Part shown: in pieces, positions 5,385 to 46,049 of the stretch | Layout of the letters: every line of letters begins with the position of its first letter | Numbering within the stretch: position 1 is the stretch's first letter | NCBI GenBank assembly: GCA_018813505.1 | Contig: JAHJBM010000069.1 | Coordinates: forward strand, 1 to 53,227 | Length of the DNA stretch: 53,227 nt | Direction of reading: 5' to 3' | Source: Candidatus Micrarchaeota archaeon | GTDB taxonomy: Archaea; Micrarchaeota; Micrarchaeia; Anstonellales; Bilamarchaeaceae | Position numbers and translations under genes: made by a program | The notes under the pieces: generated by a model | What the model was told of the DNA's origin: nothing | The model's database searches: none | What the model saw: only the letters and a program-made list of their open reading frames with translations

Positions 5385-7268
5385 CTATTTTTTATCGTCA
5401 TCTACCTTTTCGTATTTCCCGTCAACAACTGTTTCATCAGTTCCAGACTTTCCGTTATTATCGTTGCCTTTATGTCCAGCATTATTGTCTGGCGGTGGTG
5501 TTTCGCCACCCATGCCTGGACCTGCCTGCTTATACGCTTCAGCACCTACTTCCTGCAGTACCTTTTTTAGGTTTTCCGATTCCGTCCTGATCTTTGCAAG
5601 CTGATGCGCAAGCACTGCTTCCTCAAGCTTCTTTTTTGCACTATCAAGCTTGTCAAACTGGTCCTTTGACAGTTTATCCTTAAGTTCTTCAACAGTCTTG
5701 TTTGTTATGTATATCAGAGATTCTGCCTCGTTTTTAGCAGTTGCAAGGTCAAGTGCCTCCTTGTCTTTTTCTGCATATTTCTCTGCTTCGCCCATCTTCT
5801 CCTTTATGTCATCATCAGACATTTTTAATGGGGAAGTGACCCTCATATTTTGTTCCTTGTTTGTTGCTTTATCCTTTGCACTTACATTCAATATGCCATT
5901 TGCATCTATGTCAAACGTAACCTCTACCTGAGGAACTCCTCTTGGTGCGGGTGGTATGCCCACCATAGTGAATTTACCGAGAGATACATTATCGTTTGCC
6001 ATTGCCCGTTCTCCTTGCAGGATGTGGATATCCACTGCGGTTTGCATATCTGCAGCTGTTGAAAACGTTTGGGTTTTCTTTGTTGGTATTGTCGTGTTTC
6101 TTTCTATTAGTTTTGTAGAAACCCCTCCAAGGGTTTCAAGTCCAAGCGACAATGGAGTAACGTCCAGAAGAAGTATATCCTTAACGTCACCGGATAAAAC
6201 TCCTGCCTGTATTGCAGCGCCCATTGCCACACATTCCATTGGGTCAATACCCCGTTCAACATTCTTACCAGCAGTGTCTTCGACAAACTTCTGTACTATC
6301 GGCATTCTTGTTGGTCCACCAACCATGATAATTTTGTTTATTCCTGACGGTGTCAATTTTGCATCTTTGAGTGCCTGTTCAAGGGGGCCGCGGCATCTTT
6401 CTATTACTGGTCTTAAAAGATCCTCGAGTTTTGCCCTTGTCAGTTTGTGTACAAAGTGTTTTGGCTGGTTGTTCACTGATGCAAGGAAAGGTAAGTTAAT
6501 CTGAGTTTCCAAAGTTGTTGATAATTCAATCTTGGCCTTTTCTGCTGCTTCCAACAGTCTTTCGTGTGCTTGTTTATCCTTTGAAATATCAACTCCGCTC
6601 TCTTTTCTGAACTGGTCTGTAAGATATTCTGCGATTATCGCATCCATATCTCTTCCACCAAGTTGTGTGTCTCCGCTTGTGGATTTCACTTCAAATACCC
6701 CACCACCAAAATCCATGATGGTTACATCGAGCGTTCCTCCACCTAGGTCAAATACAAGTATTTTCATTTCCTGGTCTGATTTGTCAAGACCATATGCAAG
6801 GCATGCTGCCGTTGGTTCGTTTACAAGTCTTACTATCTCCAGTCCTGCGATTTTTCCTGCATCTATTGTTGCCTGCCTTTGGTTGTCATTGAAATATGCC
6901 GGTACAGTTACTACTGCTTTCTCTACTTTTTCTCCAAGGAACTCTTCAGTGTCTTTTCTTATTTTTTGCAGAATATATGCAGAAAGATCCTGTGGCGAAT
7001 ATTCTTTTCCAAATATTTTGTATTTCTCTTTTGTTCCCATCTTCCTTTTGAATCCGGTTACTGTTCCCTCAGAGTTTGTTACTGCCTGTCTTCTTGCAGG
7101 TTCGCCTATGATTCTTGTTCCATCTGGCATAAACGCCACAACACTTGGAAATGCCTTACCATATTGTGTAATTCCTTCAGTACTTGCGATTATTTTTGGT
7201 CTTCCTGCCTCAAGAAATGCAGCTGCCGAATTAGATGTTCCCAAATCAATACCAATTATTTTGCTCAT
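5385..7268 (-). CDS. dnaK: Chaperone DnaK (Hsp70)
   Basis: [33 protein letters not shown] and [11 protein letters not shown] motifs. Confidence 0.98.
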
Positions 7269-7783
7269 ATCTTATCACCTTTTTTTCCTACGACAACTTT
7301 TGCGTGTCTAAGGATTTTTCCTTTGAATAAATATCCTTTTTGTACAACCTCTATTATCTTGCCGTCTTCTCCAATTTCCTGTCTTATTGCGTCGTGTCTG
7401 TAAGGATCGAATTGATGGCCTTCTACATCCATTTCCTGCACCCCTTCGTTTTTCAGAATATCAAGAATTTTCGAATATATTAGTTCCATTCCTCGCTTGA
7501 ACTCTGGGTCTGCATTATGTGCATGTTGAAGCGCAATTTCGAATTCATCTGCTATGGGGAGGATTTTTACCAGTACCTCTGCACCTGAATTTTGTCTGAT
7601 ATTATCATTTTCTTTTAACATTCTTTTCTTGTAATTCTCGAAATCTGCCTGAAGTCTCATAATTCTTTCTTCAAGCTCATCAGCCTTTTTCTTCTTGCTT
7701 TCAAGCATTTCGATATGTTGATGTTCCATGAGTTTTTTTTCTTCATGCTCGGGCAGACTCTGTTTTTCGTCGGTTCCAAGCAT
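7265..7783 (-). CDS. grpE: Nucleotide exchange factor GrpE
   Basis: [20 protein letters not shown] and [20 protein letters not shown]; overlaps the dnaK start. The frame is open upstream to about 7837 (see findings). Confidence 0.95.
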
Positions 7784-7941
7784 CTGCGGTTCTTCGTGTT
7801 TTGGATCATGTTTTGTATCTTTTGTCGTAAAATCACCTTATTTCGCTGTATTCATCAATATTTTATCCATTACAGTTAAATTTTAACAAATTGTTTAATA
7901 TTAGTAAGGATTTTTAAATATTAGCCTTAAGTTAATAGCAT

Positions 7942-9761: not shown

Positions 9762-9928
9762 CGCCTCGGCCGGGGTTCGAACCCGGGTCGCAAGAGTTCC
9801 GTTGCACATATTATGCCTTTTTTGGGCGCTTTTTTTACTAAAAAAGTGCAATGACAGTCTCGTATGCTAACCAGTATGTACCTTGACCAATCGTCTAAGA
9901 TTGATCATAAGTTCTACACTACCGAGGC
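9762..9928 (-). tRNA. tRNA-Asp(GTC) with two introns: 15/16 (9876-9913, 38 nt) and 37/38 (9797-9851, 55 nt)
   Basis: Spliced sequence: GCCTCGG TA GTGT AGACTGGTTA GCAT A CGAGA CTGTCAC TCTTG CGAC CCGGG TTCGAAC CCCGG CCGAGGC G. Clean BHB at 37/38 (CTGT/ACGG, TGCAC/GTGCA). G15:C48 preserved. TATA-like TTTAAAAA about 30 nt upstream. Confidence 0.92.
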
Positions 9929-25493: not shown

Positions 25494-26399
25494 ATGTTAA
25501 AATATACAAAAACTAATCCGAACCTAACTGGTATGTCAGTATCTGGAAAACCCAAAGTTGCAAAAGATTCGAGGCGCGATTTCTTACGTTTTGGTGCTAC
25601 TAGCGTAGGAATTTTTGTATCTGCCACTCTGTTTGGTTGCAGATCTAATCAGCAAAGACCTACAATTCATACAGAGCCAAGAGAATCAGACGGTCCATCT
25701 CCCCGATATACGCGGGTTGAGGATCTGGAAGTTCCGCTTCTTATATTGTCCGGAGATACTGTGCTTAGTGGTGATTTTGATATTGATCGTATTGCCAACA
25801 GGATCAGAGAGAATACTTTGACTGCTGAAGATGTTGGGCATATGATTGCAGCAACGATTGATGCGGCACAAAGATATGATCCTAATTGTAGATGTATAAC
25901 AAGAGCAGATACGCTAAGAGCACAATTTTCTGAGCTTACTATTCTTGCATTTCAAAGACTTGATCAGACACTTAATGAAATCTATGCGCAGTTACCTCGA
26001 GCTGAAAGACGTCCTGTGGAAGGATTCCATTCAGATTCAATCGAACGCATAAGTCACATAATGGAAAAAATCCAACATCGTGAGATTGATCAAGAATTAA
26101 TAGATCTTTTCAATGGAATTTCTGATGATGAATTTCCTGCACTCGGTCAATTCGTTCTTGATGGATTTAGAGATCATCTTAGTAGCGGTACGCCATTAAC
26201 TGATGCCAATCATGAATTGATAACAAATCATTACTGGATGGCATCTACTATGATTGGCCTTCTTCTTGGGAATGAGCCATCATTACCTGAGGCGGTTAAT
26301 ATTGAATTTTTGACTGGTTCGGCAAATAATATCAGGTTGAATGATGCAGATATAAGTCATCGTTTGGTACGTGCGGCGCATTCTGACAAACAAAAATAA
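25494..26399 (+). CDS. Predicted Tat-exported lipoprotein, unknown function
   Basis: SRRDFL twin-arginine motif, hydrophobic stretch, LFGC. Confidence 0.7.
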   Translation: MLKYTKTNPNLTGMSVSGKPKVAKDSRRDFLRFGATSVGIFVSATLFGCRSNQQRPTIHTEPRESDGPSPRYTRVEDLEVPLLILSGDTVLSGDFDIDRIANRIRENTLTAEDVGHMIAATIDAAQRYDPNCRCITRADTLRAQFSELTILAFQRLDQTLNEIYAQLPRAERRPVEGFHSDSIERISHIMEKIQHREIDQELIDLFNGISDDEFPALGQFVLDGFRDHLSSGTPLTDANHELITNHYWMASTMIGLLLGNEPSLPEAVNIEFLTGSANNIRLNDADISHRLVRAAHSDKQK

Positions 26400-26404
26400 G
26401 AATA

Positions 26405-26832
26405 TAGCCCCGACCGGATAAACGTTGCGTTTCGAGTTTCCAATTGAAACGATATTTCGTTTCAATGGATGTCATGGTCGACGATTCGACCATGAGCATG
26501 TTCGTAATCGAAACGTCGATTACGACACCATTGAAGCAAGCTTCAATCGGTTCAGTTTCCGGTTTCGTGTCATGAAACACGAGACCTCAAGAACTAAACT
26601 CAAGACCCTAAACGCAATTTCGAACCGGTGTCACAGGATATCTTCAGACCTTTTGATTTCCTCAAGGCTTTTCGCGGGTGTGTTGCCCTAAGTTCTCAGA
26701 GGTCAAAAGGCCCCCAAAGTCCCGTATCCTTGACCAATGTCAAGTCTTTTGACTTTTCTATCTCAGGGCTTTTTAGTGAAGGTTTTTGCCATGAGTTTTT
26801 ATGAGTCAAAAAAGTTCCTAGACGACGGGGCT
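26405..26832 (-). tRNA. tRNA-Gln(TTG), 428-nt gene with three introns: 15/16 (26737-26817, 81 nt), 37/38 (26640-26713, 74 nt) and 59/60 (26419-26618, 200 nt)
   Basis: Spliced sequence: AGCCCCG TC GTCT AGTGGTCAA GGAT A CGGGA CTTTGGA TCCTG TGAC ACCGG TTCGAAT CCGGT CGGGGCT A. A1:U72 is the archaeal Gln signature; G15:C48. BHB at 37/38 (CTTT/GAAG, GGCCTTTTGA/TCAAAAGGTC). The T-loop intron is closed by TTGCGTTT/AAACGCAA. Confidence 0.88.
26443..26586. repeat. Array of five hairpins at about 28-31 nt spacing inside the tRNA-Gln T-loop intron
   Basis: ATTGAAACGA-tatt-TCGTTTCAAT (26443), TCATGGTCGA-cgat-TCGACCATGA (26472), TCGTAATCGA-aacg-TCGATTACGA (26502), ATTGAAG-caag-CTTCAAT (26530), GGTTTCGTGT-catgaa-ACACGAGACC (26561). 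Confidence 0.9.
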
Positions 26833-26983
26833 ATATATATTTTCTAAGCTAGCCAGTTGGCTACTTAGTTTCAAGTTTTCAGTTCAGGGTTTTAAGTTCC
26901 GAACTGAGTATTCTTTAAGTGTCCATAATAATATAAAAACACTTCTCTCTAAACAGAAAACACCAAACACATAACATTATCCT

Positions 26984-27214
26984 GGGCCCGTAGTCGAAAC
27001 TTTTTTGGGATGCCTAAAAAGTTTCATCAAAAAGGCATCAATTTCGACAATGGTTAAGATGTCCGCCTCACAGAAACTTTTTAGTAAAAAGTTTCCAATT
27101 GAAATGCGCACATTTCAATGGACCATTGAAACATTAGTTTCAATTGGTCATCAAAAACCTGCTGAAAAGTTTTGCGAACGCGGAAGATTCGCGGTTCAAT
27201 TCCGCGCGGGCCCA
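26984..27214 (+). tRNA. tRNA-Val(CAC) with two introns: 15/16 (26999-27050, 52 nt) and 37/38 (27073-27178, 106 nt)
   Basis: Spliced sequence: GGGCCCG TA GTCG AATGGTTA AGAT G TCCGC CTCACAC GCGGA AGATT CGCGG TTCAATT CCGCG CGGGCCC A. GTCG/CGAC central helix at 15/16; A15:U48. Divergent from tRNA-Gln. Confidence 0.9.
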
Positions 27215-27225
27215 AAAATTCCTTT

Positions 27226-27420
27226 GTTTACAGTTTCCGGTCTTGGGTTTTGCCGGCTGGATTTTTGGGACAACAAAGTTCTTTTGTTGAACTTTGTGCG
27301 CCTTGTTCGAAGTATCGAACAAGTGCGAGAAGTGAAATTTCGAGAGAAATTTCACAACTGCCCAATTTTCTATTTAAAGTTTCGGGTTTAGAGTTTCGAG
27401 TTGTGAGTTTCAGAATTTAG
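27226..27420. repeat. Intergenic three-hairpin array (29-30 nt period) flanked by 7-nt-periodic tracts
   Basis: ACAAAGTTC-N7-GAACTTTGT (27273), CTTGTTCGA-agta-TCGAACAAG (27302), GTGAAATTTC-gaga-GAAATTTCAC (27332). Flanks are GTTTACA GTTTCCG GTCTTGG GTTTTGC and GTTTCGG GTTTAGA GTTTCGA GTTGTGA GTTTCAG. Confidence 0.85.
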
Positions 27421-27449: not shown

Positions 27450-28370
27450 ATGAGGGAAATTGTCATTGATATGAAAATGAACTCCGCTAGTGAAGCATTA
27501 GCTCAGTCCATCACTTCTTCATCTAGTAAACAGGCCAATTTCATCGCTAGTCTATTAGTGGACAAACCGCTTATTAGTGATTTTTATCGAGCATATGCCT
27601 ATTTTCGTTGGGCTGATGATGTAATCGATGACCAATGTCAATCAGTTGAAGAACGCCGTTCTTTCATTAAGGGACAAAAGAACTTGATTGATAGTCTTTA
27701 CCTTGGAGAAAAACCCAATTTTCTGCCTGAAGAAGAGATGGTGGTTGATCTTATTAGAAATGGTCGTGGTGAAAGTAATTTACTTCAATCGTACATTTAC
27801 AATCTTTTATCTATTCTTGAATTCGATGCAGGACGCGGTGGCAAATTAGTCAGTGAGCAAGAACTTATTCAATACTCCAATTATATTGGAAAAGGTGTCA
27901 CAGATCTTTTGTTATATTGCATAGGTAATGATTATTCGTATCCATCTAGTGAAAAACGCTATTTTGCAGCCACTGGTGCTCACATTGTTCACTTGCTTCG
28001 TGATTATGTGGAGGATCTGCCATGCGGTTATATCAATATTCCAAAGGAGTATCTTGATGCCCATGGATTAAATCCAAAAAATATCGAGAACTTGGCCTTC
28101 AGGAACTGGGTTAAAAAACGAGTGAAATTGGCTCGGAAATATTTCCGGGAAGGGAAGAAATATATTGATAAAGTAGATGTTCTGCGTTATAAAATAATGG
28201 CTTACTGTTATTGCTTGCGTTTTGAAACAATCCTTGATACTATTGAAAAAGATAATTATGTTCTACGTGCTGAATACAATAATCGACGAAGTCTTTTAAC
28301 CTGGGTTAAGATGGCTTATGTGGCTCTTAAGGTCACTGCCAAACACTTTAGTGGAGGCAAGAACGCATAG
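27450..28370 (+). CDS. Squalene/phytoene synthase-family (head-to-head prenyltransferase) protein
   Basis: YAYFRWADDVIDD (DDxxD) and HLLRDYVEDLPCGYINIP (second Asp-rich motif). Confidence 0.85.
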   Translation: MREIVIDMKMNSASEALAQSITSSSSKQANFIASLLVDKPLISDFYRAYAYFRWADDVIDDQCQSVEERRSFIKGQKNLIDSLYLGEKPNFLPEEEMVVDLIRNGRGESNLLQSYIYNLLSILEFDAGRGGKLVSEQELIQYSNYIGKGVTDLLLYCIGNDYSYPSSEKRYFAATGAHIVHLLRDYVEDLPCGYINIPKEYLDAHGLNPKNIENLAFRNWVKKRVKLARKYFREGKKYIDKVDVLRYKIMAYCYCLRFETILDTIEKDNYVLRAEYNNRRSLLTWVKMAYVALKVTAKHFSGGKNA

Positions 28371-29182: not shown

Positions 29183-30292
29183 TTATTTTTTCAGATAAAT
29201 TATTTGTGTCGGGAATGGAATTCCGATCTTTGCCTTGTTGAGTTCTTTGTATATCAGATTATTGGCTTCAATCTTCGTGTCATATGCCCTGTCATAATGG
29301 TCTATCCACAATCTTGCCTGGAAATTCAGTGAGGATGCGGCCATCTCAGTAAAAACAACTGAAACTGGTGGATTCGTAAGTATTCCTTTTATGTTTTTTC
29401 TTATTGCATCCTCTATTAATTTCGCTACCTTCTCAGGATCATTTCCATACTCTACACTAAATGGCACATTAACCCTTACTTTAAGATCTGGTTGTGTAAA
29501 ATTCTTTATCCTCGCCTTTGCAAGTGTGTCATTCGGTACAAGTATTATTTCATTATCATATGTCTTTATTCTGGTACTTCTAAGGCTTATCTCATGCACT
29601 GTTCCTAGATCTCCCGAATCAAGTTGTATCTTGTCGCCTACTTTGAATGTTTTATCCATTATCAGTGCAACTCCTGCTATTATGTTCGAAAGTGTGGTCT
29701 GCATGGCAAATGAAACTGCAAGGCCTGCGATACCGAGTCCTGCGAGGAAAGGCCCTACATCAACGCCCCATGCCCCGAGTATTATTATCAGGCCAAATGC
29801 CCAGGTTATTATCACAGCTGCTTTGTGGAATATCGGGACAATCTCGTCATCAAGTGTACTGTCTGTTTTTTTTGCCAGATCTTTGATTCCATACTCAACG
29901 AGTATTCCAAGGCCTTTTACTATAAATAAAATCACCGTAACATAAGCCAGCGTTAAAATCAGCTTTAGGATAATATCGTACATCGTATCTCCTGTCGAGA
30001 TATTCATGACAGCCAGATACAGTCCACCTATAACTATCAATCTAAAAATCGGCTGCTGTGCAGATTCCAGCAATTTATCGTCAAACTCGGTTTTTGTTCT
30101 TTTTGCAAGCTGTTTTGTGATTATACTGAGTATGACTATCGCTATTGTCGCTAGAATAAATGAAACAACTATGAACCCTATCGAAACAATCACTGGGTTC
30201 AGTGTTTTTATCTGCTCCAAAACAGCCGTATCTATAAACGGTTCGAATATACCTAAATTCTGTACGGCAAGATTTACACTAATATTCTCCAT
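29183..30292 (-). CDS. mscS: Small-conductance mechanosensitive channel
   Basis: TM helices, AGLGIAGLAVSFAMQTTLSNIIAG, FKVGDKI, GTVHEISLRST, VPN and GIPFP motifs. Confidence 0.93.
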   Translation of the reverse strand: MENISVNLAVQNLGIFEPFIDTAVLEQIKTLNPVIVSIGFIVVSFILATIAIVILSIITKQLAKRTKTEFDDKLLESAQQPIFRLIVIGGLYLAVMNISTGDTMYDIILKLILTLAYVTVILFIVKGLGILVEYGIKDLAKKTDSTLDDEIVPIFHKAAVIITWAFGLIIILGAWGVDVGPFLAGLGIAGLAVSFAMQTTLSNIIAGVALIMDKTFKVGDKIQLDSGDLGTVHEISLRSTRIKTYDNEIILVPNDTLAKARIKNFTQPDLKVRVNVPFSVEYGNDPEKVAKLIEDAIRKNIKGILTNPPVSVVFTEMAASSLNFQARLWIDHYDRAYDTKIEANNLIYKELNKAKIGIPFPTQIIYLKK

Positions 30293-35627: not shown

Positions 35628-36491
35628 ATGCTTAAACTGACATTCCTCGGAACTTCAGGCAGTACGCCGACAATCGAGCGGGGCATGCCCTCAATAGCGC
35701 TAAAATATGACCGCGAGCTCATGCTCTTTGACTGCGGCGAAGGCACCCAGAGACAGCTCATGAAATACAAGGTTGGTTATGGGAGTGTTGACTCCATCTT
35801 TATATCCCATCCCCATCTTGACCATTATCTTGGAATGTATGGGTTGTTGGAAACATTGCGGCTCTCATCTCCATCTCCGAGGCCACTAAATCTCTTTCTT
35901 CCTCGCAATGTCGAACCCAGGGATTATTCGTTCATAAAAACACATGGGATACGAAAAGGCGTCGTATACAAAGGTACTGGGTTTTCTATTTCCGCATTTC
36001 CTGTCAAACATTGCAATTCTGCATATGGTTTCGTATTTCAAGAGGATGATCGCTTAAAGTTCGATGAAAAAAAAGCACATGGTCTTGGGCTGAAAGGCAG
36101 AATGTTTGCTGAGATCCAAAAAAAAGGTCAAGTAAAAACTCCTGGTGGAATTGTAAATATCGACGAGATAACCTGGACAAAACCAGGTATAAAAATTGTC
36201 TATGGTGGGGATTGCACTCCGGATGCCGTTAGTATGGAAGCTGCAAAGAATGCAGATATTCTGATTCACGAGGCGACTTTTGACAGTTCGCTTAAAGAAG
36301 AAGCAAAAGAAAGATTACACAGTACTGTTGAGGATGCGGCTTTAGTTGCAAAAGAGGTGAATGTCAAACAGCTTATACTAACGCACATAAGTCCACGCTA
36401 TTCTGATATCTCAGATCTTTTGGCCTCGGCACGTAATATATTTGATAATACAATTATAGCTCAGGATGGTTTAGTTATAGAAGTGAAATAA
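35628..36491 (+). CDS. rnz: Ribonuclease Z
   Basis: FLGTSGSTP, FDCGEGTQRQ, SHPHLDHYLG, HEATF, HST and LTHISPRY motifs. Confidence 0.95.
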   Translation: MLKLTFLGTSGSTPTIERGMPSIALKYDRELMLFDCGEGTQRQLMKYKVGYGSVDSIFISHPHLDHYLGMYGLLETLRLSSPSPRPLNLFLPRNVEPRDYSFIKTHGIRKGVVYKGTGFSISAFPVKHCNSAYGFVFQEDDRLKFDEKKAHGLGLKGRMFAEIQKKGQVKTPGGIVNIDEITWTKPGIKIVYGGDCTPDAVSMEAAKNADILIHEATFDSSLKEEAKERLHSTVEDAALVAKEVNVKQLILTHISPRYSDISDLLASARNIFDNTIIAQDGLVIEVK

Positions 36492-45957: not shown

Positions 45958-46049
45958 ACAGTAAAGTTGTATACAACTTTACTGTACAATAAAATTTTTG
46001 AAAATATTTGACATGATACTTCATGTCAAAATTTGACATTACATGTCAA
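45958..46049. repeat. Palindrome cluster upstream of the symporter: perfect 28-bp palindrome plus two TTGACAT/ATGTCAA inverted repeats
   Basis: ACAGTAAAGTTGTATACAACTTTACTGT (45958-45985), TTTGACATGA-tact-TCATGTCAAA (46007-46030) and TTGACAT-tac-ATGTCAA (46033-46049). Confidence 0.85.

What the first reader, a model, noticed from the sequence alone, without database searches (positions are those of the whole stretch)
26405..26832. 428-nt triple-intron tRNA-Gln whose 200-nt T-loop intron is a regularly spaced hairpin array
Seen: a canonical archaeal tRNA-Gln(TTG) with A1:U72 reassembles from four exons, and 355 of the 428 nt are intron. The 59/60 intron has a closing helix (TTGCGTTT/AAACGCAA) enclosing five hairpins that start at 26443, 26472, 26502, 26530 and 26561. 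The first three are perfect 10-bp stems with 4-nt loops and a shared CGA-N4-TCG apex but otherwise different sequences. Established: archaeal tRNA introns are cut at BHB/BHL motifs and excised introns can be circularised by RtcB; most are much shorter than this. Inference: each splicing event would release a roughly 200-nt multi-hairpin RNA, possibly circular. It could be an array-like cargo (decoy or protein-binding sites, small-RNA precursor) or a record of serial palindrome insertions. Automated tRNA callers may well miss the gene.
Basis: partly seen in the sequence, partly recalled or inferred. Interest (0 to 1): 0.85.

Follow-up and report, generated by a model that had tools for sequence, protein, structure and literature searches.

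The report
Three-intron tRNA-Gln carrying palindromic repeats
This is a real, heavily interrupted glutamine tRNA gene of a tiny groundwater archaeon, and the hairpin array in its longest intron is a block of palindromic repeats found all over this genome and its relatives, so it is more likely selfish filler than a dedicated cargo.

Summary
On the minus strand, 26832..26405 is a 428-nt tRNA-Gln(UUG) gene with four exons and introns of 81, 74 and 200 nt at 15/16, 37/38 and 59/60. ARAGORN and Rfam miss the raw gene. ARAGORN calls the in-silico spliced 73-mer tRNA-Gln(ttg).

Seven same-genus orthologues have the same 73-nt mature sequence (66-71/73 identical) with zero to three introns at exactly these junctions. 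One is intron-less and passes Rfam. The genome (Candidatus Micrarchaeota) encodes a full-length homologue of the broad-specificity epsilon2 EndA, plus RtcB. No second tRNA-Gln(UUG) was found.

The hairpin array is not special to this intron. The intron is a ~80-nt backbone shared with the T-loop introns of tRNA-Gln(CUG), Trp and Gly, plus one ~112-nt four-hairpin block. Its twin-hairpin core occurs at 23 places in this genome and in 26 of 73 sampled genomes of the family. It matches on both strands, covaries, lies almost always outside ORFs, and sometimes has 11-19-nt flanking direct repeats.

A tRNA-Gly(CCC) gene in the same genome is larger still (496 nt, 259-nt T-loop intron). The most likely reading is a functional multi-intron tRNA whose intron shelters a mobile or REP-like palindromic element. 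No splicing or intron-RNA evidence could be obtained.

The parts
26405..26832 (-). tRNA-Gln(UUG) gene, 428 nt including discriminator A at 26405
   Evidence: In-silico spliced 73-mer called tRNA-Gln(ttg) by ARAGORN. Same mature sequence in 7 orthologues.
26818..26832 (-). exon 1 (tRNA positions 1-15)
26737..26817 (-). intron 1, 81 nt, D-loop position 15/16. Member of an intron family shared with tRNA-Glu(UUC) (86% identity) and tRNA-Gln(CUG).
   Evidence: BHB threading gives central helix 3/4 and inner helix 6/8.
26714..26736 (-). exon 2 (positions 16-37, including anticodon UUG)
26640..26713 (-). intron 2, 74 nt, canonical position 37/38. Homologous introns occur in 3 of 7 UUG orthologues and in the CUG isoacceptor genes of three relatives.
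   Evidence: BHB threading gives central helix 4/4, inner helix 7/8, outer helix 5/5.
26619..26639 (-). exon 3 (positions 38-59)
26419..26618 (-). intron 3, 200 nt, T-loop position 59/60 (58/59 would give the same product)
26405..26418 (-). exon 4 (positions 60-73)
26610..26617 (-). 5' arm of the intron-3 closing helix (h' of the BHB motif)
   Evidence: 8/8 paired with 26425-26432. Same arms in the T-loop introns of tRNA-Gln(CUG) and tRNA-Gly(GCC).
26425..26432 (-). 3' arm of the intron-3 closing helix
26561..26586 (-). hairpin A (9/10 stem by hand count, 6-nt loop). Part of the intron backbone, not of the inserted block.
   Evidence: Aligned with backbone sequence of the Gln(CUG), Trp and Gly introns. 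Folded.
26439..26550 (.). inserted four-hairpin block B-C-D-E (~112 nt), absent from three homologous T-loop introns
   Evidence: Alignment gap. Composite copies with the same module order elsewhere: C65:14242-14362 (81% identity), C90, C71.
26467..26530 (.). twin-hairpin core (C + D with conserved linker GAACATGCTCA). Two-fold symmetric: it matches model R1 on both strands.
   Evidence: 86.4 bits on the minus strand and 68.3 bits on the plus strand. Covariation.
26443..26466 (.). hairpin E, perfect 10-bp stem core. The extended hairpin 26439-26470 has a bulge.
   Evidence: 29/29 identical to a hairpin in the T-loop intron of tRNA-Gly(GCC) on C56.
26472..26495 (.). hairpin D, perfect 10-bp stem, 4-nt loop
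26502..26525 (.). hairpin C, perfect 10-bp stem, 4-nt loop
26528..26550 (.). hairpin B (stem with one bulged base)
   Evidence: read; folded

Best explanation
This is the working, and apparently only, tRNA-Gln(UUG) gene of a Candidatus Micrarchaeota (DPANN) genome in which most tRNA genes are interrupted. The pre-tRNA is transcribed from the minus strand. Its three introns sit at bulge-helix-bulge-like motifs at 15/16, 37/38 and 59/60. They are cut by the genome's epsilon2-type, broad-specificity splicing endonuclease, and the exons are joined by RtcB (inferred, not shown). The 200-nt T-loop intron has two parts. The first is a ~80-nt backbone belonging to an intron family shared by the T-loop introns of tRNA-Gln(CUG), tRNA-Trp(CCA) and tRNA-Gly(GCC). 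The second is one inserted ~112-nt block of four hairpins. That block belongs to a dispersed, family-restricted class of palindromic (REP/MITE-like) elements. They lie in non-coding DNA, in other T-loop introns and next to tRNA genes. They keep their hairpins through compensatory change and behave as two-fold symmetric DNA elements. The endonuclease needs only the T-stem, the two bulges and the closing helix at the base of the intron. The interior is therefore free to absorb such insertions. The array is best read as tolerated selfish or neutral passenger DNA that is discarded with the intron, not as a purpose-built cargo.
For: Gene: ARAGORN calls the spliced 73-mer tRNA-Gln(ttg). Seven same-genus orthologues give 73-nt mature sequences 66-71/73 identical to it, with compensatory stem changes. 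Their introns are present or absent exactly at the predicted junctions: intron 1 in 6/7, intron 2 in 3/7, intron 3 in 1/7. The intron-less orthologue scores 63.3 bits with Rfam tRNA. Threading on the canonical hBHBh' geometry gives central/inner helices of 3/4 and 6/8, 4/4 and 7/8, and 2/4 and 8/8 for introns 1-3. All 15 introns threaded in this gene, its orthologues and the paralogue have at least 2/4 in the central helix. A 394-aa EndA aligns end to end with 4fz2_A, the ARMAN-2 epsilon2 enzyme (E 4e-127). Passages of PMC3239211 and PMC3488258 report that this enzyme cleaves a 59/60 intron with a relaxed motif. RtcB is present. A 16-mer scan allowing up to 2 mismatches found no second Gln(UUG) gene, only coding or rRNA chance hits. 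Block: it is absent from the homologous introns of Gln(CUG), Trp and Gly, and in Gly(GCC) a related block sits at a different point of the backbone. The twin-hairpin model R1 finds 23 distinct places in the own genome (41 matches counting both strands). It finds 28 of 151 sampled genomes of the order: 26/73 in the family, 13/25 in the genus, 0/42 and 0/19 in two other families. Five copies of a ~145-nt repeat containing it are 98-99% identical and sit at or near contig ends. Stems are 94.7% paired, with 11 pairs changed on both sides (0/500 shuffles). Non-Watson-Crick cells are 24 G:T, 15 A:C and 12 other out of 968. Perfect hairpins number 215 genome-wide against 41-50 in shuffles, and 156 of the 215 lie in the 13.4% of the genome outside ORFs of 120 aa or more. 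Flanking direct repeats of 11 nt or more occur at 6 of 32 sites against 25 of 2000 random sites. A second gene, tRNA-Gly(CCC), has the same three-intron architecture with a 259-nt T-loop intron holding related modules.
Against: No RNA evidence for splicing was obtained. One contig from an RNA library covers 26760-26900 unspliced, there are no joints, and DNA carry-over cannot be excluded. The intron-3 central helix has only 2 of 4 standard pairs (two U.U), and RNAfold's MFE draws the 5' site in a 2x2 internal loop rather than a 3-nt bulge. The strong covariation, the conserved linker and the recurring B-C-D-E order would also fit a functional RNA or a protein-binding site. Modules sit in 3 of the 5 verified T-loop introns, which may be more than a safe-haven effect. 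No transposase could be tied to the elements: no Y1/RAYT gene was found in a 91%-complete genome. None of the 15 own-genome sites tested has a flanking repeat of 11 nt or more. The 7-nt repeat flanking the block in this intron is also tandem in the Trp intron backbone, so it is not a target duplication. Choosing the best-scoring strand per site could itself tilt the G:T/A:C count.
Confidence: 0.65

Rival explanations
1. The hairpin block is a functional RNA that rides on the pre-tRNA. Splicing and RtcB release a stable, possibly circular, ~200-nt multi-hairpin RNA that acts as a protein-binding platform, decoy or small-RNA precursor, by analogy with the box C/D RNA in the tRNA-Trp intron of Euryarchaeota.
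For: The fold is very stable (z -8.4). Hairpins covary, and the linker and hairpin bases are conserved across genera. Modules occur in 3 of 5 T-loop introns of this genome. RtcB is present.
Against: 0 of 7 orthologous tRNA-Gln(UUG) genes have the block, and 6 of 7 lack the T-loop intron altogether. The element matches on both strands and occurs in either orientation. G:T is not clearly favoured over A:C (24 vs 15). Most copies are intergenic. There is no Rfam match better than E 0.5 in 26000-27300. No intron RNA was seen (which is no verdict).
Confidence: 0.12
2. The palindromes act at the DNA level for the host. They could be binding sites of a dimeric DNA-binding protein, recombination or replication signals, or a shield that keeps integrating elements from using the tRNA gene (the Randau-Soll idea cited in PMC4090602).
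For: The core is two-fold symmetric around a perfect 10-bp palindrome in the consensus of the family. There is no strand bias. The elements lie near tRNA genes in relatives. The review passage on integration into tRNA genes was read.
Against: Distribution is patchy even within the genus (13/25), which is unlike a host-essential signal. Near-identical copies and flanking duplications fit mobility better. Stem sequences vary while the structure is kept, which argues for hairpin recognition rather than duplex-sequence recognition.
Confidence: 0.1
3. The hairpins help splicing or folding. They would lock the long intron into a compact rod so that the T-stem, bulges and closing helix form correctly.
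For: In the MFE of the whole 428-nt transcript, the acceptor, anticodon and T stems all survive and each intron folds on itself.
Against: Homologous introns of 78-79 nt without the block exist in the same genome. Orthologues need no T-loop intron at all.
Confidence: 0.08
4. The gene is a decaying pseudogene overrun by repeats.
For: 83% of it is intron, callers miss it, and no spliced reads were seen.
Against: Exons are 66-71/73 identical to orthologues with compensatory changes. All splice motifs are intact. It is the only Gln(UUG) gene found in a 38%-GC genome. Other essential tRNAs in the genome have the same architecture.
Confidence: 0.03

Closest known systems
Disrupted tRNA genes of Candidatus Micrarchaeum acidiphilum ARMAN-2 and its epsilon2 EndA (PMC3239211 and PMC3488258; passages read)
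   Same: Same phylum. The EndA is a full-length homologue. Introns occur at non-canonical positions including 59/60 with relaxed BHB motifs, and a large share of tRNA genes is interrupted.
   Different: The ARMAN-2 59/60 intron that was tested is 13 nt, whereas here it is 200 nt (259 nt in tRNA-Gly(CCC)) and holds dispersed palindromic modules. Cleavage of these long introns has not been tested.
Multi-intron tRNAs and intron 'transposition' in Thermoproteales (Sugahara 2008 and Fujishima 2010, as cited in PMC4033280, PMC8450103 and the preprint 10.64898/2026.10.13.758758; passages and one section read)
   Same: Up to three introns per gene. Related intron sequences occur in tRNA genes of different isotypes. 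Here intron 1 is 86% identical between Gln and Glu, and the T-loop backbone is shared by Gln, Trp and Gly.
   Different: A different phylum and a different EndA type. Here the introns additionally act as hosts for a separate repeat family that also lives outside tRNA genes.
Bacterial REP/BIME/REPIN elements (PMC2817692 and PMC12306157; search listing, passages of PMC12306157)
   Same: Short extragenic palindromic hairpins, many copies, arranged in regularly spaced composite arrays, restricted to a lineage.
   Different: No RAYT/Y1 transposase was found. The unit here is a twin hairpin with a conserved palindromic linker. Some copies have 11-19-nt flanking duplications. Copies sit inside BHB introns. 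The RepRanger paper has 0 occurrences of DPANN or Micrarchae and 1 of tRNA in its main text.
Box C/D sRNA encoded in the tRNA-Trp intron of Euryarchaeota (recalled; one reference-list entry seen in PMC4090602)
   Same: A long (~100-nt) structured BHB intron that yields an RNA after splicing.
   Different: There is no C/D or other Rfam match here. The insert is not conserved at the orthologous position, and it is a dispersed repeat.

Membership tests
Archaeal tRNA gene with BHB-type introns | A cloverleaf tRNA is obtained after intron removal | tested here: met
   ARAGORN calls tRNA-Gln(ttg), 73 nt, on the in-silico spliced sequence.
Archaeal tRNA gene with BHB-type introns | Exon junctions agree with uninterrupted homologues | tested here: met
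   The intron-less orthologue L019 is 69/73 identical, scores 63.3 bits with Rfam tRNA, and is called tRNA-Gln(ttg) by ARAGORN. Six further orthologues have introns only at the same junctions.
Archaeal tRNA gene with BHB-type introns | Bulge-helix-bulge (or relaxed hBH/BHL) motif at each exon-intron boundary | tested here: met
   Threading gives central helix 3/4, 4/4 and 2/4, inner helix 6/8, 7/8 and 8/8, and outer helix 3/5, 5/5 and 5/5 for introns 1-3. Intron 2 is near-canonical; introns 1 and 3 are relaxed.
Archaeal tRNA gene with BHB-type introns | A splicing endonuclease able to cut non-canonical sites, and a ligase, are encoded | tested here: met
   A 394-aa ORF at C95 matches 4fz2_A over residues 6-394 (E 4e-127). 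RtcB is at C75.
Archaeal tRNA gene with BHB-type introns | Spliced mature tRNA observed | tested here: inconclusive
   Of two RNA-library runs, one gave a single unspliced contig (26760-26900) and the other gave nothing. There were no joints.
REP/BIME-like extragenic palindromes | Many dispersed copies of a short hairpin-forming unit, mostly outside genes | tested here: met
   23 places for the twin hairpin in the own genome. 215 perfect hairpins against 41-50 in shuffles. 156/215 lie outside ORFs of 120 aa or more. 39 clusters of 2 or more hairpins.
REP/BIME-like extragenic palindromes | A cognate RAYT (Y1/HUH) transposase in the genome | tested here: not met
   PF01797 gave 0 matches in the 91%-complete genome. 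It is therefore not filed as a REP/RAYT system, only as working like one.
MITE-like non-autonomous transposon | Conserved terminal inverted repeats and target-site duplications | tested here: inconclusive
   Copies are enclosed by a closing inverted repeat, but its sequence differs between copies. Direct repeats of 11-19 nt flank 6/32 sites against 25/2000 random sites, and 0/15 own-genome sites. No autonomous partner was found: one TnpB-like ORF and one Cas1 are present but unlinked.
Intron-encoded functional sRNA (e.g. box C/D in the tRNA-Trp intron) | Recognisable sRNA motif or family, and conservation of the insert in orthologous introns | tested here: not met
   The best Rfam E-value in 26000-27300 is 0.5, and all matches are far below gathering scores. 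The block is absent from 7/7 orthologues.

The most novel reading that the evidence does not exclude
The twin-hairpin and four-hairpin modules are an undescribed family of small, structure-defined mobile elements of Micrarchaeota that home to tRNA genes: T-loop introns, tRNA 3' ends (with duplication of the tRNA end), and gene starts. Each insertion brings a stable helix, and the epsilon2 endonuclease accepts relaxed motifs. Such insertions could therefore be tolerated inside tRNAs and could enlarge existing BHB introns or even seed new ones. That would supply the missing 'arrival route' for archaeal tRNA introns, which the 2026 Asgard preprint (abstract and section 2.5 read) leaves open.
Probability: 0.25. 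Interest if true: 0.75.

Novelty: new variant of a known kind. Interest (0 to 1): 0.5.

Why it matters
Three-intron archaeal tRNA genes, and 59/60 introns cut by the epsilon2 endonuclease, are already known. The gene itself is therefore a new member of a known kind.

The new part is the content of its T-loop intron. An intron backbone shared by several tRNA isotypes has absorbed a block of a lineage-restricted, covarying palindromic repeat. That repeat also sits in other T-loop introns, beside tRNA genes and in intergenic DNA.

This gives a concrete system for two questions: how archaeal tRNA introns grow and perhaps arise, and how much interior sequence the splicing endonuclease tolerates. 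The system is one family of Micrarchaeota in which about a third of sampled genomes carry the element.

It is also a practical warning. In this genome Rfam's tRNA model passes only 5 tRNAs and ARAGORN reports 13 (some clearly false). tRNA counts and completeness estimates for such MAGs are therefore badly understated.

Tried and rejected
Expression. One run search and one laying of reads were done. Two metatranscriptome runs from a study that also holds this DNA were laid. One gave a single 164-nt contig over 26760-26900 (part of intron 1, exon 1 and 68 nt upstream), with adaptor remnants at both ends. The other gave nothing. There were no joints, so there is no verdict on transcription, splicing, or intron stability or circularity. 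Two DNA runs (X6, X7) showed the same sequence over the parts they covered, with no presence/absence polymorphism of the block.

Known RNA families. Rfam found nothing at gathering threshold in the window. A permissive scan of 26000-27300 gave only chance-level matches with E of 0.5 or more.

Viral origin. An exact-pattern scan of IMG/VR for half of the twin hairpin gave 10 loci. None matched model R1 (0 matches), so these are chance pattern matches.

Transposase link. No Y1/RAYT was found. One TnpB-like ORF at C89 and one Cas1 at C82 are present, but neither was linked to the repeats. Contig-end copies in three other genomes share only ~150-300 nt and contain no transposase.

Target duplication in this intron. 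The 7-nt repeat GGAAACT flanks the block, but the same repeat is tandem in the Trp intron backbone, so it was rejected as evidence.

Second tRNA-Gln(UUG). Hits of the 16-mer scan at C17, C67 and C19 lie in long ORFs, and the hit at C51 lies in rRNA-like sequence. A T-loop-intron-like pattern at window 35849-35916 looked like coding sequence when read and was dropped.

A possible K-turn-like motif in introns 1 and 2 was considered by eye only and not pursued.

Literature. Searches found no description of palindromic repeats inside archaeal BHB introns or of such repeats in Micrarchaeota. These cover only the held open-access library, and supplements were not consulted.

tRNAscan-SE and SPLITS were not available.
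Full report
WHAT IS THERE. Read on the minus strand, 26832..26405 begins with AGCCCCG and ends with CGGGGCT plus a discriminator A. Four pieces were cut out by coordinates: 26832-26818, 26736-26714, 26639-26619 and 26418-26405. Joined, they give a 73-nt sequence (58.9% G+C in a ~38% G+C window). ARAGORN draws it as a standard cloverleaf, tRNA-Gln(ttg), with A1:U72. The three intervening pieces are 81, 74 and 200 nt, that is 355 of 428 nt, and they sit at tRNA positions 15/16, 37/38 and 59/60. On the raw window ARAGORN finds no tRNA and Rfam finds nothing at gathering threshold. The only thing to add is that the gene is on the minus strand.

IS IT A REAL GENE? The strongest evidence is comparative. 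A DNA search of 41 genomes (own genome and relatives) recovered the orthologous tRNA-Gln(UUG) gene in seven same-genus genomes. All seven yield a 73-nt mature sequence that is 66-71/73 identical to this one, with compensatory changes in the anticodon and T stems. Their introns come and go exactly at the three predicted junctions:
- G007 (L019) has none.
- G015, G020 and G005 have only intron 1 (37, 55 and 143 nt).
- G001 and G010 have introns 1 and 2.
- G024 has all three (47, 78 and 46 nt).

The intron-less copy is a bona fide tRNA: Rfam 63.3 bits, and ARAGORN tRNA-Gln(ttg). A scan of the whole 1.54-Mb assembly (91% complete) with every 16-mer of the mature sequence, allowing up to 2 mismatches, found only this gene, the CUG isoacceptor on C42, the related tRNA-Glu, and a few hits inside long ORFs or rRNA. 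This is therefore the only tRNA-Gln(UUG) gene found.

SPLICING MACHINERY AND MOTIFS. Prolyl-tRNA synthetase neighbours place the organism in Candidatus Micrarchaeota. The genome encodes a 394-aa endonuclease that aligns over residues 6-394 with PDB 4fz2_A (E 4e-127). 4FZ2 is the ARMAN-2 epsilon2 enzyme (two occurrences of the code in PMC3488258). [quoted passage not shown] RtcB is present.

I threaded each intron onto the canonical geometry: outer helix, 4-bp central helix, 3-nt bulges cut after their second base, inner helix. The results are:
- Intron 2 gives 5/5, 4/4 and 7/8 (outer, central, inner).
- Intron 1 gives 3/5, 3/4 and 6/8.
- Intron 3 gives 5/5 (the T stem), 2/4 (C56:G and G57:C plus two U.U) and 8/8 (the closing helix).

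All 15 introns threaded in this gene, its orthologues and the Gln(CUG) paralogue have at least 2/4 in the central helix. RNAfold of the whole 428-nt transcript keeps the acceptor, anticodon and T stems, folds each intron on itself, and places the 3' site of intron 3 in a 3-nt bulge next to the T stem. Whether the enzyme cuts these particular substrates is inferred, not shown.

THE GENOME CONTEXT. This gene is typical of its genome, not an outlier. Rfam's tRNA model passes only 5 loci in the assembly (9 at E of 1 or less). ARAGORN with introns allowed reports 13, several with introns of 71-109 nt and at least one obvious artefact. By in-silico splicing plus ARAGORN I confirmed four more genes with a 59/60 intron:
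- tRNA-Gln(CUG), C42:5476-5706, introns of 80 and 78 nt.
- tRNA-Gly(GCC), C56:32216-31970, T-loop intron of 133 nt.
- tRNA-Trp(CCA), C43:12196-12006, introns of 38 and 79 nt.
- tRNA-Gly(CCC), C71:1376-881, a 496-nt gene with introns of 121, 45 and 259 nt at the same three positions.

Intron 1 of the Gln(UUG) gene is 86% identical to the D-loop intron of tRNA-Glu(UUC) on C4, and related to that of Gln(CUG) and to weaker matches elsewhere. This is a cross-isotype intron family of the kind described for Thermoproteales (passages).

ANATOMY OF THE 200-NT INTRON. An alignment of the T-loop introns of Gln(UUG), Gln(CUG), Trp and Gly(GCC) shows a shared backbone. It has the same start, the same U-rich middle and the same 3' end, including the arms of the closing helix. 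Relative to the other three, Gln(UUG) has a single extra stretch of about 112 nt (26439-26550). This stretch holds hairpins B, C, D and E. Hairpin A (26561-26586) aligns with backbone sequence. In Gly(GCC) a related two-hairpin block sits at a different point, right after the 5' arm, and one of its hairpins is 29/29 identical to hairpin E here. The array is therefore best described as one composite insertion into an older intron. A 7-nt repeat flanks the block, but the same repeat is tandem in the Trp backbone, so I do not count it as a target duplication.

THE HAIRPINS ARE A DISPERSED REPEAT FAMILY. Parts of the block match elsewhere in the genome. The same B-C-D-E order recurs at C65:14242-14362 (81% over 125 nt, with its own 9-bp closing helix). 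It recurs with variations at C90, C71, C67 and C65:228. The C-D pair has a fixed frame: TGTCG, hairpin, CGA-R-CATG-Y-TCA, hairpin, TGACA. The upper stems differ between copies.

On 11 copies, 94.7% of cells pair and 11 of 23 pairs change on both sides (0 of 500 shuffles reach this; slid controls give 20-47% pairing). A covariance model built from them (R1) finds 41 matches, which are 23 distinct places, in the own genome. Almost every place matches on both strands, because the unit is two-fold symmetric: the consensus linker GAGCATGCTC is its own reverse complement.

In a sample of 151 genomes of the order, 28 have matches at E of 1e-4 or less: 26 of 73 in the same family, 13 of 25 in the genus, 1 of 1 in one further family, and 0 of 42 and 0 of 19 in two others. 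Five copies of a ~145-nt repeat containing the unit are 98-99% identical and lie at or near contig ends. Other genomes show similar 150-300-nt repeats at contig starts, with no transposase inside.

Genome-wide there are 215 perfect hairpins (9 bp or more, loop 3-8 nt) against 41, 50 and 45 in three shuffles. There are 39 clusters of two or more. 156 of the 215 lie in the 13.4% of the genome outside ORFs of 120 aa or more.

RNA-LEVEL OR DNA-LEVEL? In 50 distinct twin-hairpin sequences (52 sites, best-scoring strand of each), the two stems hold 968 cells: 917 Watson-Crick, 24 G:T, 15 A:C and 12 other. An RNA selected on one strand should show G:U far above A:C. Here the two are similar, even though picking the better strand favours G:U. 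Together with the two-fold symmetry and the occurrence in either orientation, this points to a constraint acting on both strands: hairpin or cruciform DNA, or an element whose spread needs the hairpins.

SIGNS OF MOBILITY. Direct repeats of 11-19 nt flank 6 of 32 twin-hairpin sites tested, against 25 of 2000 random sites. All six are in other species. Two duplicate the 3' end of a tRNA gene (L007/L120 and L122) and two duplicate a ribosome-binding-site-plus-start region (L011, L119). In the own genome, 0 of 15 tested twin-hairpin sites have such repeats. However, a different hairpin composite on C80 is flanked by a direct repeat of about 35 nt (counted by eye in the printed sequence) that contains a gene start. 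The distribution within the genus is patchy.

I could not name an enzyme. There is no Y1/RAYT gene, and the one TnpB-like ORF and one Cas1 are not linked to the repeats. Mobility is therefore likely, but its mechanism is unknown.

HOW IT MOST LIKELY WORKS. Shown: the exon-intron structure, the conservation of the mature tRNA, BHB-like motifs at all three sites, the presence of the right endonuclease type and of the ligase, the composite nature of intron 3, and the dispersed, covarying, strand-symmetric nature of its hairpin modules. Inferred: that the pre-tRNA is made and spliced, that the endonuclease reads only the base of the intron (T stem, bulges, closing helix), that the interior is therefore free to accept insertions, and that the hairpin block is a tolerated passenger which leaves with the intron.

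A crude count hints at a preference for tRNA-associated sites. Two of the 23 own-genome twin-hairpin places lie in the ~750 nt of verified T-loop introns. About 0.08 would be expected if they were spread evenly over the ~206 kb outside long ORFs. This is my arithmetic, the numbers are small, and it was not tested formally.

WHAT IS KNOWN AND WHAT IS NEW. The following are all in print: multi-intron tRNAs, 59/60 introns, the epsilon2 enzyme, and cross-isotype intron families. REP-like palindromes are reported broadly in bacteria and archaea, but the RepRanger paper has no occurrence of DPANN or Micrarchae. Five literature searches found nothing on palindromic repeats inside BHB introns. The 2026 Asgard preprint (abstract and section 2.5 read) states that how archaeal tRNA introns arrive remains open. 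I therefore rate the gene as a new member of a known kind. I rate the intron-with-repeat-block as a new variant of a known kind.

VERDICT. Interest is moderate (0.5). The tRNA itself is ordinary for its lineage. The link between a lineage-specific palindromic element and tRNA introns is worth following up.

Noticed in passing
G000 C71:881-1376 (minus strand): A 496-nt tRNA-Gly(CCC) gene with introns of 121, 45 and 259 nt at 15/16, 37/38 and 59/60. The 259-nt T-loop intron holds B, C and D-type hairpins plus others. About 500 nt downstream of the gene is further hairpin array (C71:~380-880), including two more R1 matches.
   Followed up: partly
window 27073-27119, 27273-27355 and 45958-46030: Further clusters of perfect hairpins in the window (2, 3 and 2 hairpins). 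The first two lie in the 600-nt gap between the tRNA-Gln gene and the squalene/phytoene synthase-like ORF at 27450-28370. The 128-aa ORF 27005-27391 over them has no Pfam match and is probably spurious.
   Followed up: no
window 9762-9928 (minus strand): ARAGORN with introns allowed reports a tRNA-Leu(caa) with an 83-nt intron here (whole-genome run). It was not reported by the default ARAGORN call on the window.
   Followed up: no
G000 C4:34309-34446, C30:2144-2284, C74:1-142, C77:7167-7317, C78:~5750-5890: A ~145-nt repeat in five copies, 98-99% identical, containing a twin hairpin inside its own closing helix and ending at ...CACTAA. Four of the five copies lie at contig ends, so it breaks the assembly. 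It looks like a recently active non-autonomous element.
   Followed up: partly
G000 C80:~29500-29700 (minus strand): A nested hairpin composite (~115 nt) flanked by a direct repeat of about 35 nt (by eye) that includes an ATG and the first codons of a gene on the other strand. ARAGORN's 'tRNA-Lys(ttt)' call at C80:29540-29642 overlaps this element and is probably false.
   Followed up: no
L007/L120 (G004:C7), L122 (G122:C55), L012 (G016:C81): In relatives, twin-hairpin elements sit immediately 3' of tRNA genes, with a 12-15-nt duplication of the tRNA 3' end. That pattern is expected of an element inserting into tRNA gene ends.
   Followed up: partly
window 26737-26817 and 26640-26713; G000 C4:21071-21298; C42:5476-5706: Introns 1 and 2 and their homologues share a conserved AAAGCC-N-UGAG(G/A) motif and a stem (CTCATGGC/GCCCTGAG here) that changes compensatorily between the Gln(UUG), Gln(CUG) and Glu copies. 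Function is unknown. A K-turn-like arrangement was considered by eye only.
   Followed up: no
G000 C76:~7700-7800 and C65:14225-14385: Two elements share the same outer shell (closing helix CTGGAACGA / TCGTTCCAG and adjacent bases) but hold different inner hairpins. L118 and C67 have hairpins nested inside the loop of another hairpin. The modules seem to be exchanged or inserted into one another.
   Followed up: no
L004 (G024:C15), T-loop intron of the tRNA-Gln(UUG) orthologue: The only orthologue with a 59/60 intron (46 nt) has an unrelated intron sequence whose core is a single GAACGG-CAAT-CCGTTC hairpin of the type dispersed in these genomes.
   Followed up: no
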